Positions 15,326 to 19,607 of a DNA stretch of 40,190 bases are shown here, piece by piece. The translations under genes and the position numbers were made by a program. The DNA is from a virus (lineage: Duplodnaviria; Heunggongvirae; Uroviricota; Caudoviricetes), in IMG/VR virus record IMGVR_UViG_2698536576_000006, positions 1-40,190 of that record, one strand, 5' to 3'. The notes under the pieces are model-generated. The model ran no database searches. It was not told the origin of the DNA and saw only the letters and a list, made by a program, of their open reading frames with translations. Numbering within the stretch: the stretch's first letter is position 1; each line of letters begins with the position of its first letter.

Positions 15326-15401
15326 GCCGACTTAGCTCAGCAGGCAGAGCAACTGACTTGTAATCAGTGGGTCACCAGTTCGATTCCGGTAGTCGGCACC
15401 A
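15326..15401 (+). tRNA. tRNA-Thr (anticodon UGU)
   Basis: 76-nt cloverleaf folded by hand: acceptor GCCGACT/AGTCGGC, D-loop with GG, anticodon stem ACTGA/TCAGT with loop CTTGTAA, T-loop TTCGATT, 3' CCA encoded. Near-identical to host thrU as recalled. Confidence 0.9.
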
Positions 15402-15404
15402 TAT

Positions 15405-15479
<75 letters not shown>

Positions 15480-17568: not shown

Positions 17569-18159
17569 TTATATGAATTGCTGGATAAAATCGTTCGGTT
17601 TTGTATATCCGTCAAGAACTAGATCGTGATTCTCCCGATGAAGAACCAGTGTATCCATATAATCAGGTTTAAATCTCCAGCCGTTCATCTTTTTTGCAAT
17701 TTTCGACAGACAGTGGTTATGCGTGAAAATTACAGTAATATTATCAGATTGTGATATTCCCAGTATGTTGTTAACTGCGCCATCATCACAGGTTGAAATA
17801 TCAGGAATGGTTGCTGTTTTCCCACCCGAAAAAAAAGAGGCTGTCTGTATCGTTCGGACTGTATCTGTTGAATAGAGACCGTAGTCCGGAAACATTTTGC
17901 TGAATGCATTTCCATATTGTTGAGCTTTGTTGGCTCCATTTATTGTGATTCCATCACGTTCCGACAGGCATGTATTTGTGGAGCGATCACATCGTTCTCC
18001 ATGTCTGATGAGAAAAATAATCTGATGCTTCTGGTTAATTTCAGTGATGTCATTCATATCAAGCCTGGCCGGAGTTCTTTTTATATATATGCTTGACAAG
18101 CAAACGAATATAACGAGTAAAGATATAATCAGAAATTTTATTATTGTGCGGCTGGGCAT
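17569..18159 (-). CDS. Ais/PmrG-like histidine-phosphatase (LPS core heptose(II)-phosphate phosphatase homolog), prophage moron
   Basis: Signal/TM N-terminus followed by RHGERCDRSTNTCLS...GITINGA...NAFS...LYSTDTVRTIQTA...IFTHNHCL, closely paralleling E. coli Ais as recalled. AT-rich, opposite strand. Start set at ATG 18159 (AAGGA RBS). Confidence 0.75.
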   Translation of the reverse strand: MPSRTIIKFLIISLLVIFVCLSSIYIKRTPARLDMNDITEINQKHQIIFLIRHGERCDRSTNTCLSERDGITINGANKAQQYGNAFSKMFPDYGLYSTDTVRTIQTASFFSGGKTATIPDISTCDDGAVNNILGISQSDNITVIFTHNHCLSKIAKKMNGWRFKPDYMDTLVLHRENHDLVLDGYTKPNDFIQQFI

Positions 18160-18247
18160 ATAAATATCCTTATACAGGTGTGTGAAAAAGGACATTATTA
18201 TTTGTAAATCTTATGTGATCCTTAAGGGGGGCTGACGTGGCGAAATG

Positions 18248-18280
18248 GGCACTGGTAGCGGTACCGGTGCCTTTTTTATT
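18248..18280 (+). terminator. Strong hairpin plus T-run
   Basis: ggcactggtag-cg-gtaccggtgcc (about 10-bp stem) followed by TTTTTT. Confidence 0.45.
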
Positions 18281-18551
18281 GATGGGATGCATTAGCTTGG
18301 ATAAGGTGCTCCAGCTTTTCGATACAGCTTCTCAGGTCTGTGAAATTGTCGACGGTGTTCGGCAGTGTCTGCAGAACTGATTGCCTGTAAGAGCAGAATA
18401 TTTTGCTGAAAAATGAAGGATACATCAGCGTCAGGAAAGCATGAAATTCTGTGTTTGTGGCTACTCAATAAAATAAATTCTTTCTGTCTCCGCGAATACT
18501 CAAATGTTGATCAGTGCCCGGTGCGGAGACGGGCTTCGATATCAGGAGGCG

Positions 18552-18851
18552 ATGATGGAAAAAACAGAAAACAAACTGATTGTAATTGGTGCTGATGCTG
18601 CTCCGTTTAAGTTTGAGTCGTCTCAACTGGTGGAGATGCGCATCAGTGATGAATGGGGTGAGGTTAAAGCCCGCGCGCAGTGTGCGGATGGCGAAAACCA
18701 GTAGTTGATCCACTACAAAGCAGCTGATGGTCGCGCCACGACGGAGTGGTTTGGTGAGTCAATGCTGGAAGCAACAGAAGATGATCGTCATCCTGGTTGT
18801 CCGGTATTTGCCTGTATGAAATTACCGGAAGGCGCAGTTGTTACTGAGTAA
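18552..18851 (+). pseudogene. Small phage ORF interrupted by an in-frame amber (TAG) codon
   Basis: AGGAGG RBS, ATG 18552, 50 sense codons, TAG at 18702-18704, then 48 further in-frame sense codons to TAA 18849-18851 (verified codon by codon). Nonsense pseudogene or readthrough candidate. Confidence 0.4.
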
Positions 18852-19106
18852 CAGGCATTACAGCAGCCCTTCAGTGTGAGGGGCTGCGATAATGCAGGTG
18901 TTAGAGTGTGTGCAAATGATAATTGCTCCCATTTTCACGGGTCCTTCCTGGGAATTTGGAATACCGAGGGGATACGGATGCGCAGAAATCGCCAAATTTT
19001 TGCATTTTCATCGTTCATCACCACCACTGTAATTTGTTGATAATGAAAGGTTAAAAAATAGCTGGTGTCGAAAATGCTTATTTTTTGTTCATCACTGGAG
19101 GGGTAA

Positions 19107-19607
19107 GTGGATAAGGAATTGAAACACCTTGTTCTTAATGTCAGCCAGTTAGCTGCGCTGTCGGGTGTGCACCGACAGACTGTCGCATCAAGAATCAAAA
19201 ATATCCGAACAGCGGGTGGGCATGAGAGTAACCTCAAGCTGTATAAACTTACTGATATTCTGGCAGAATTAATGAAGTTGCCACCGCCTGTCGCTGAAGG
19301 AGAAATGGATCCCCATGACCGAAAAGCCTGGTATCAGTCAGAACGTGAGCGCCTGAAATTCGAACAGGAGGTCGGAGAACTGATCCCTGCGTCTGATGTC
19401 GCCCGTGAATTTGCTGAAATGGCAAAGGCTATGGTGCAGGTTCTGGAAACCCTCCCCGATATTCTTGAACGCGATTGCGCTCTTGAGCCTTCGGCTGTCA
19501 TGCGGGTGCAAAGCATTATTGATGATCTGCGTGACGAAATTGCGCGGCGGGTGGCAGATGACAGCAAACAGGAAGATACAGAGGAGGAAAATCAGGAGGA
19601 CGAATAA
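19107..19607 (+). CDS. Terminase small subunit
   Basis: 166 aa with N-terminal HTH-like segment (LNVSQLAALSGVHRQTVASRIKN) and acidic C-terminus. GTG start after GGAGG; stop overlaps the large-subunit ATG (TAATG). Confidence 0.7.
   Translation: MDKELKHLVLNVSQLAALSGVHRQTVASRIKNIRTAGGHESNLKLYKLTDILAELMKLPPPVAEGEMDPHDRKAWYQSERERLKFEQEVGELIPASDVAREFAEMAKAMVQVLETLPDILERDCALEPSAVMRVQSIIDDLRDEIARRVADDSKQEDTEEENQEDE

What the first reader, a model, noticed from the sequence alone, without database searches (positions are those of the whole stretch)
18552..18851. Small conserved-looking ORF split by an in-frame amber codon
A well-initiated ORF (AGGAGG RBS) runs 50 codons, hits TAG at 18702-18704, and continues in the same frame for 48 more sense codons to TAA. 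The downstream half has no independent start signal. This is either a fresh nonsense mutation or a programmed readthrough giving two isoforms.
Basis: seen in the sequence. Interest (0 to 1): 0.5.

Follow-up and report, generated by a model that had tools for sequence, protein, structure and literature searches.

The report
Prophage gene broken by amber mutation
A small prophage gene of unknown function has been knocked out by a single-base change that turned an invariant tyrosine codon into a stop codon; this is an ordinary pseudogene, not a programmed recoding signal.

Summary
An ORF with an AGGAGG ribosome-binding site is interrupted by TAG at 18702-18704 and stays open to TAA at 18849-18851. 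It belongs to the phage phiP27 L33 family (phrog_1935, about 98 aa, function unknown), which lies between the lysis and packaging genes of many enterobacterial prophages.

In every intact homolog the codon is TAC (Tyr). This holds for 82 of 83 aligned loci, for 87 versus 0 IMG/VR contigs by exact 27-mer, and for 115 of 117 complete E. coli genomes. Tyr is invariant across E. coli, Shigella, Salmonella, Yersinia and Klebsiella.

The half downstream of the stop is the more constrained one (pN/pS 0.12). It holds three of the five strands of a predicted SH3-like barrel.

The window allele differs from the family consensus at five positions. All five alter the protein and none is synonymous. Copies carrying the TAG have picked up more damage, including a second stop.

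The base after the stop is U. There is no stimulatory RNA structure and no suppressor tRNA. RefSeq already annotates two copies of this allele as "pseudo, internal stop".

One qualification: the mutation is not a singleton. The same null allele circulates in many assemblies and in several prophage backgrounds.

The parts
18544..18549 (+). Shine-Dalgarno AGGAGG of the interrupted gene
   Evidence: Read directly. It lies 5 nt upstream of ATG 18555 and 2 nt upstream of ATG 18552.
18555..18701 (+). N-terminal 49 codons of the phiP27 L33 / phrog_1935 homolog (an alternative ATG lies at 18552). This is all that can be translated under the standard code.
   Evidence: PGAP starts the pseudogene CDS here in E10 and NY1601. 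The exact 49-aa product is P0099.
18702..18704 (+). Amber codon TAG. It is derived from TAC (Tyr51, invariant in the family) by a C>G change at 18704.
   Evidence: alignment; Tyr invariant; TAC in 82 of 83 loci; IMG/VR 0 versus 87; 2 of 117 genomes.
18705..18851 (+). Untranslated remainder of the gene: 48 codons plus TAA. It encodes the most conserved half of the family (motifs YKAADG, WF.ES, HPGCPV.A, LPEGA).
   Evidence: C-half pN/pS 0.12. One search places strands b3-b5 of the predicted barrel here.
18855..18895 (+). Conserved stem-loop immediately after the gene. Its 3' foot marks the mosaic junction to the packaging module.
   Evidence: dG -30.4 kcal/mol, z -6.0. (conserved in about 190 matches among the fetched loci, with unrelated sequence after its 3' foot). 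(found without the ORF in other prophages).

Best explanation
This is a pseudogene: an accessory late-region prophage gene inactivated by a single nonsense mutation. The gene belongs to the phiP27 L33 / phrog_1935 family. Its product is about 98 aa, of unknown function, and predicted to form a small SH3/Tudor/KOW-like five-stranded beta-barrel.

A C>G transversion at 18704 changed the invariant Tyr51 codon TAC to amber TAG. Ribosomes starting at ATG 18555 should terminate at the TAG through RF1. That would release a 49-50-aa fragment lacking strands 3-5 of the barrel and all the conserved C-terminal motifs, so no functional protein is expected. This last step is inferred, not shown.

The null allele then spread with, or between, related prophages that share the DUF1441/GpA-type terminase module. 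It is decaying further.
For: 1. Ancestral state. phiP27 and E. coli UTAK-18 have TAC at this codon in a gap-free alignment. TAC is present in 82 of 83 aligned loci. The exact 27-mer with TAC occurs in 87 IMG/VR contigs and with TAG in none. Only 2 of 117 complete E. coli genomes holding the region carry TAG.
2. Conservation. Tyr51 is conserved in all full-length homologs from five genera.
3. Constraint. The family is under purifying selection (pN/pS 0.19), strongest in the half downstream of the stop (0.12).
5. Relaxed constraint on the stem branch. The window allele differs from the family consensus at five sites: P9L, L23S, Y44C, Y51* and G88C. All change the protein and none is synonymous. 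No intact protein closer than 95% identity exists among 5.8 billion proteins.
6. Further decay within the TAG clade. TTG>TAG at codon 52 (L092) and L72P at an invariant Leu (L088) are seen in DNA. V11E and F21L variants of the truncated product also exist.
7. Existing annotation. PGAP annotates the gene as "pseudo, internal stop" in E10 and NY1601.
8. No rescue mechanism found.
   - The window's tRNAs are Thr(UGU) and Gly(UCC) only.
   - No supF-type tRNA-Tyr exists in any of 5426 E. coli genomes.
   - The Gln(CUG) tRNA in the metT-glnV tRNA operon of NY1601, the position of supE, has the wild-type anticodon.
   - No significant RNA structure lies 3' of the stop.
   - There is no Rfam match.
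9. Family precedent. The family is lost in other ways too: an 82-bp tandem duplication disrupts a TAC allele in L189.
Against: - The allele is not rare in absolute terms. The exact truncated product is indexed in 231 blocks of the assembly collection, in several prophage backgrounds, and twice in one genome. A neutral dead gene can hitch-hike, but this spread could also mean that the loss, or the fragment, is tolerated or favoured.
- The downstream half is still free of frameshifts in almost all copies, and TAG is directly followed by TTG, a possible restart codon. The near-zero divergence of the whole block explains the intact frame without invoking selection.
- The counts of secondary mutations are small (2 in DNA, 2 at the protein level).
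- The host genome of this particular window was not available, so it could not be checked for suppressors.
- Other single-step amber suppressors (serU, leuX, trpT types) were not screened.
Confidence: 0.9

Rival explanations
1. Programmed stop-codon readthrough. The TAG would be decoded at a set low frequency, giving a short 49-aa isoform and a full-length 98-aa isoform, as in the Qbeta coat/A1 protein.
For: The frame stays open for 48 codons after the stop. The allele is widespread.
Against: - The stop is confined to one clade, and all other homologs encode Tyr.
- The fourth base is U. From general knowledge of E. coli termination (Poole et al. 1995, recalled, not checked here), this is the most efficient termination context.
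- No stimulatory structure follows the stop (z -1.45), and there is no Rfam element.
- The short isoform would be two strands of a five-strand barrel.
- Some TAG-bearing copies have a second TAG at the next codon or L72P downstream.
Confidence: 0.02
2. Suppressor-dependent expression. The host or phage would carry an amber-suppressor tRNA (for example a supF-type tRNA-Tyr that would restore the wild-type protein, or a supE type), or the phage would use TAG as a sense codon.
For: A Tyr-inserting suppressor would regenerate the ancestral sequence exactly. Some phages do recode TAG.
Against: - The only tRNAs in the window are Thr(UGU) and Gly(UCC).
- No supF-type tRNA-Tyr occurs in any of 5426 complete E. 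coli genomes, including E10 and NY1601.
- supE-type glnV is present in 155 records. The eight listed are K-12-type or laboratory strains of 4.58-4.79 Mb, such as C600, DH5alpha and J53.
- NY1601, which carries the same allele, has a wild-type CUG anticodon on that tRNA.
- All 48 other prophage genes are intact under the standard code, and one of them ends in TAG.
Confidence: 0.02
3. Functional split gene or adaptive null. Either the two halves are made separately, by termination at UAG and restart at the adjacent UUG, and reassemble; or the loss of this protein is itself advantageous and the null allele has swept through related prophages.
For: - TAG is immediately followed by TTG.
- Gene callers predict both halves.
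- The identical allele sits in at least three upstream contexts and in two copies within one genome.
- The prophage around it is otherwise intact in NY1601.
Against: - The TTG is the ancestral Leu codon in all homologs, not a new start, and no SD precedes it.
- One TAG-bearing copy converts that TTG to TAG.
- Splitting an SH3-like barrel between strands 2 and 3 is unlikely to give a stable complex (inference).
- Missense changes at conserved positions (L23S, Y44C, F21L, L72P) argue for relaxed rather than maintained constraint.
- Spread is equally explained by hitch-hiking with the terminase module.
Confidence: 0.06
4. Sequencing or assembly error at position 18704.
For: It is a single-base difference from homologs.
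Against: The same G is present in independent assemblies from different laboratories and sample types. These include E10, NY1601, AD30, metagenome scaffolds and Logan assemblies, more than 25 contigs in all. It is always linked to the same other allele-specific substitutions.
Confidence: 0

Closest known systems
Enterobacteria phage phiP27 gene L33 (P27p33, NP_543085.1) / PHROG phrog_1935, hypothetical protein
   Same: About 97% nucleotide identity over the gene and its flanks. The alignment is gap-free. The protein matches the profile end to end (E 1.6e-57). The position is the same, after the lysis genes and directly before the packaging genes, followed by the same hairpin.
   Different: phiP27 and all other sampled members have TAC (Tyr) where the window has TAG. 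The window allele also carries P9L, L23S, Y44C and G88C. Its downstream neighbour is a DUF1441/GpA-type terminase rather than the HNH/P27-type. An Ais-like phosphatase moron is inserted upstream.
RefSeq pseudogenes ACZJ07_RS20710 (E. coli E10) and ACXYXI_RS19755 (E. coli NY1601), 'hypothetical protein, internal stop'
   Same: The ORF sequence is identical over all 300 nt, with the same TAG and the same flanking genes.
   Different: The surrounding prophage differs by 0.2-0.8%. E10 has additionally lost its head and tail genes through a deletion in the terminase gene.
Programmed readthrough genes (for example the Qbeta A1 read-through protein)
   Same: There is an in-frame stop with an open frame beyond it.
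   Different: The stop is not conserved among homologs. The context is UAG-U rather than a leaky one. There is no stimulatory element. The extension is the conserved core of the domain, not an appended module.

Membership tests
phiP27 L33 / phrog_1935 protein family | Full-length, significant match to the family profile and to its members | tested here: met
   phrog_1935 E 1.6e-57, residues 2-99 against profile positions 1-98. 93 homologs at E<=1e-3, best 9.8e-54.
phiP27 L33 / phrog_1935 protein family | Intact reading frame of about 98 codons | tested here: not met
   TAG at codon 51. The window holds a disrupted member, that is, a pseudogene of the family.
Pseudogene by nonsense mutation | The stop position is a sense codon in intact homologs and differs from it by one base | tested here: met
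   TAC>TAG. TAC in 82 of 83 loci. 87 versus 0 IMG/VR contigs.
Pseudogene by nonsense mutation | The truncation removes conserved, constrained sequence | tested here: met
   C-half pN/pS 0.12. Conserved motifs lie downstream of the stop. Strands b3-b5 are lost (a moderate-confidence model).
Pseudogene by nonsense mutation | Signs of relaxed constraint in the disrupted lineage | tested here: inconclusive
   5 of 5 differences from the consensus are protein-altering. Secondary changes are a second stop, L72P, F21L and V11E. The direction is as expected, but the counts are small, and synonymous changes in the N-half were not observable in the protein-level look-ups.
Pseudogene by nonsense mutation | Not a sequencing artefact | tested here: met
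   The same base is present in more than 25 independently assembled contigs.
Programmed stop-codon readthrough | The stop codon is conserved at the same position across homologs | tested here: not met
   Tyr is present in all other homologs.
Programmed stop-codon readthrough | A leaky nucleotide context or a stimulatory downstream RNA structure | tested here: not met
   The context is UAG-U. The fold of 18690-18780 gives z -1.45, with 19 of 200 shuffles folding as well. There is no Rfam hit.
Programmed stop-codon readthrough | Both isoforms are produced in vivo | not testable with these tools
   This needs a reporter assay, proteomics or ribosome profiling.
Suppressor-tRNA / TAG-recoded phage | A tRNA with a CUA anticodon in the phage or host | tested here: not met
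   The window has only tRNA-Thr(UGU) and tRNA-Gly(UCC). No supF type occurs in 5426 genomes. The NY1601 tRNA-Gln(CUG) at the supE position is wild type. The window's own host, and suppressors of the serU, leuX and trpT types, were not tested.
Suppressor-tRNA / TAG-recoded phage | In-frame TAG codons in many phage genes | tested here: not met
   The 48 other CDSs of the near-identical NY1601 prophage are intact under table 11. Their stops are TGA 28, TAA 19 and TAG 1.
SH3-like / Tudor / KOW small beta-barrel fold | A five-stranded barrel with significant structural matches | tested here: inconclusive

The most novel reading that the evidence does not exclude
The null or split allele might not be neutral debris. 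One possibility is that the two halves are both made, by termination at UAG and restart at the adjacent UUG, and complement each other. The other is that loss of this SH3-like late protein is advantageous and the identical TAG allele has swept by recombination through several prophage backgrounds that share the DUF1441/GpA packaging module.
Probability: 0.06. Interest if true: 0.35.

Novelty: already known. Interest (0 to 1): 0.08.

Why it matters
It matters little. It is one more accessory prophage gene lost to a point mutation, and public annotation already flags it as a pseudogene. There are three practical points:
- This ORF should not be reported as a recoding candidate.
- The two half-ORFs that some gene callers predict (49-50 aa and 48 aa, deposited as "hypothetical proteins") are fragments of one gene.
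- The phiP27 L33 family appears dispensable for keeping an otherwise intact-looking prophage. That is a small clue for anyone studying this uncharacterised family.

Tried and rejected
- Pfam and NCBIfam scans of the repaired protein found nothing.
- A profile search of PDB sequences gave only chance-level Hha hits at E about 1.4.
- The AFDB50 library was not available.
- Literature searches for phiP27 L33 found no functional data.
DNA-level variation in those sub-lineages could therefore not be examined.
- The first IMG/VR scan ranks by tblastn and could have under-sampled TAG copies. I repeated the count with exact DNA 27-mers.
- The 383-aa members of the truncated product's protein cluster are unrelated thiolase-like proteins, so that is a clustering artefact and not a fusion.
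- The terminator-like hairpin at 18247-18272 lies inside a small lipoprotein-like ORF, and the count was no greater than in shuffles, so I did not treat it as functional.
- I considered a gene on the opposite strand (the 82-aa ORF at 18465-18713). I rejected it because the conservation pattern and the profile match are in the + frame.

Full report
**Observation.** Reading 18300-19100 and the ORF table confirm the finding. AGGAGG lies at 18544-18549, and there are ATG codons at 18552 and 18555. The frame is open to TAG at 18702-18704. The same frame then stays open for 48 more codons to TAA at 18849-18851. The second ATG has the better spacing from the SD (5 nt), and PGAP uses it for the same sequence elsewhere. 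The codon after the TAG is TTG.

**What the gene is.** The 421 bp around the ORF match Stx2e phage phiP27 at 96.9% identity, where the gene is L33 (P27p33, "hypothetical protein"). They also match 223 of 5426 complete E. coli genomes. With Tyr placed at the stop, the protein matches PHROG phrog_1935 (function unknown) end to end at E 1.6e-57. It has no Pfam, NCBIfam or PDB sequence relative.

In 80 IMG/VR loci the gene always sits after the lysis genes and directly before a packaging module. That module can be of different types: HNH plus P27-type TerS, or DUF1441 plus GpA-type TerL.

**What the stop is.** A gap-free alignment with phiP27 and E. coli UTAK-18 shows TAC (Tyr) where the window and strain E10 have TAG.
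- Among 83 loci aligned by DNA, 82 have TAC. The only TAG is E10.
- That set was chosen by tblastn, which could penalise interrupted copies. I therefore counted exact 27-mers in IMG/VR: 87 contigs with TAC and 0 with TAG.
- A 61-mer centred on the stop is exact in only 2 of 117 complete E. coli genomes that hold the region, E10 and NY1601. All other listed genomes differ at two bases.
- At the protein level, Tyr51 is conserved in every full-length homolog across five genera.

**Selection.**
- Pairwise Nei-Gojobori counts over 52 distinct intact alleles give pN/pS 0.19. The N-terminal half gives 0.33 and the half downstream of the stop gives 0.12. The part cut off is therefore the more constrained one.
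- The window allele differs from the family consensus at five positions: P9L, L23S, Y44C, Y51* and G88C. All change the protein and none is synonymous. L23S, Y44C and the stop are unique to this allele.
- From the site counts and pN/pS, I estimate that about 41% of changes should be non-synonymous under the family's usual constraint. Five of five is then unlikely (about 0.01), but it is unremarkable under neutrality. This calculation is my inference.
No 61-mer with only one of the two local changes appeared among the listed genomes. No intermediate is therefore known.

**Spread and further decay.** The mutation is not a singleton.
- The window is 99.2-99.8% identical to a 40-kb, otherwise intact-looking prophage next to yjjG in E. 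coli NY1601. It is identical over 18196-19607 to a contig of GCA_001268905.1.
- The exact 49-aa truncated product is indexed in 231 blocks of the assembly collection.
- It occurs behind two different lysis modules. One is M15 endolysin, Rz and an Ais-like phosphatase, as here. The other is a GH108 endolysin preceded by pertussis-like toxin genes, in E. coli AD30.
- It also occurs next to IS elements, and twice in one genome.
- Across about 26 such contigs, the 421-bp block carries only three SNPs. Two lie in the downstream half. One is 18706 T>A, which turns the TTG after the stop into a second TAG. The other is 18766 T>C, which gives L72P at an invariant leucine.
- Variants of the truncated product with V11E and F21L also exist, the latter at a nearly invariant Phe.
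- A different disruption of a TAC-type allele, an 82-bp tandem duplication, is seen in L189.

**Tests of the recoding alternatives.**
- The base after the stop is U. From general knowledge of E. coli termination, this is an efficient context.
- The 91 nt around and after the stop fold no better than shuffles (z -1.45). No Rfam family matches.
- The window encodes only tRNA-Thr(UGU) and tRNA-Gly(UCC).
- A supF-type tRNA-Tyr (CUA anticodon) is absent from all 5426 complete E. coli genomes, where every best match has exactly one mismatch.
- A supE-type tRNA-Gln is exact in 155 records. The eight listed are K-12-type or laboratory strains such as C600, DH5alpha and J53.
- In NY1601, which carries the same allele, the Gln(CUG) tRNA in that tRNA operon has the wild-type anticodon.
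- The 48 other genes of the NY1601 prophage are intact under the standard code, and one of them ends in TAG. The phage therefore does not read TAG as sense.

**Conclusion.** The gene is a pseudogene created by a TAC>TAG mutation, and RefSeq already annotates it as such in E10 and NY1601. Ribosomes are expected to stop at 18702 and release a 49-50-aa fragment that lacks three of the five barrel strands. That step is inferred, not shown.

What remains open is whether the spread of this null allele is pure hitch-hiking or reflects tolerance of, or selection for, the loss. A restart at the adjacent TTG also cannot be formally excluded without expression data. I give those readings about 6% together.

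**Novelty and score.** This is an ordinary pseudogene that is already annotated as one. Interest is 0.08.

Noticed in passing
window 18855-18895 (+): A strong stem-loop sits directly after the gene's TAA (RNA dG -30.4 kcal/mol, z -6.0). It follows the homologous gene in about 190 matches among the fetched loci, with a variable loop. Homology ends exactly at its 3' foot, after which at least 8 unrelated sequences and packaging modules follow. The same roughly 50 bp also occur without the gene in other prophages, such as Fels-1, phage cdtI and E. coli KO11FL. Most variants lack a T-run, so it is not a canonical terminator. It looks like a conserved mosaic-junction or RNA element upstream of terminase genes.
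   Followed up: partly
window 17569-18195 (-): A gene on the opposite strand lies between the lysis cassette and the pseudogene. RefSeq annotates it as lipopolysaccharide core heptose(II)-phosphate phosphatase (Ais-like histidine phosphatase). It is a likely moron, and it is absent from phiP27 and from the AD30-type prophage carrying the same TAG allele.
   Followed up: no
window 18237-18380 (+): A small ORF with a lipoprotein-type signal (…FLLMGC…) is homologous to a 51-aa ORF in L093. Homology to L093 starts only at 18239, so its original start and first codons were replaced where the phosphatase moron joins. PGAP does not annotate it. The terminator-like hairpin at 18247-18272 lies inside it.
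   Followed up: partly
window 15326-15479 (+): A tRNA-Thr(UGU) and tRNA-Gly(UCC) pair lies between the Q antiterminator region and the holin genes. Neither is a suppressor.
   Followed up: partly
L189:1258-1690: This is an independent inactivation of the same gene family in another prophage, with ParB_N/TAGT genes downstream. A TAC-type allele carries an 82-bp tandem duplication that shifts the frame.
   Followed up: partly
L078, L079, L080 (gene region): Three IMG/VR alleles have a stop seven codons before the usual end (…KLP*GAVV…). P0035 (91 aa) is the same form. The last residues of the family therefore appear dispensable.
   Followed up: no
L093:47-1966 and L098:47-1966: Prophages in E. 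coli AD30 and another isolate carry the same TAG allele. Immediately upstream of the holin genes they encode pertussis-like toxin subunits (Pertussis_S1/Scabin-like and S2S3) and a TfpB-domain protein.
   Followed up: no
L002:4128-4893 (E. coli E10): In E10 the same prophage has a truncated large terminase gene joined to a partial baseplate gene. A deletion has removed the head genes and part of the tail genes.
   Followed up: no
protein cluster of P0099/P0100: The 90%-identity cluster that holds the 49-50-aa fragments has a 383-aa representative and members that are unrelated thiolase-like proteins. This is a clustering artefact of the database and not a fusion.
   Followed up: yes
L085:1-900 (E. 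coli NY1601): The metT-leuW-glnU-glnW-metU-glnV tRNA operon of NY1601 holds only one tRNA-Gln(CUG). From memory, K-12 has two (glnV and glnX).
   Followed up: no
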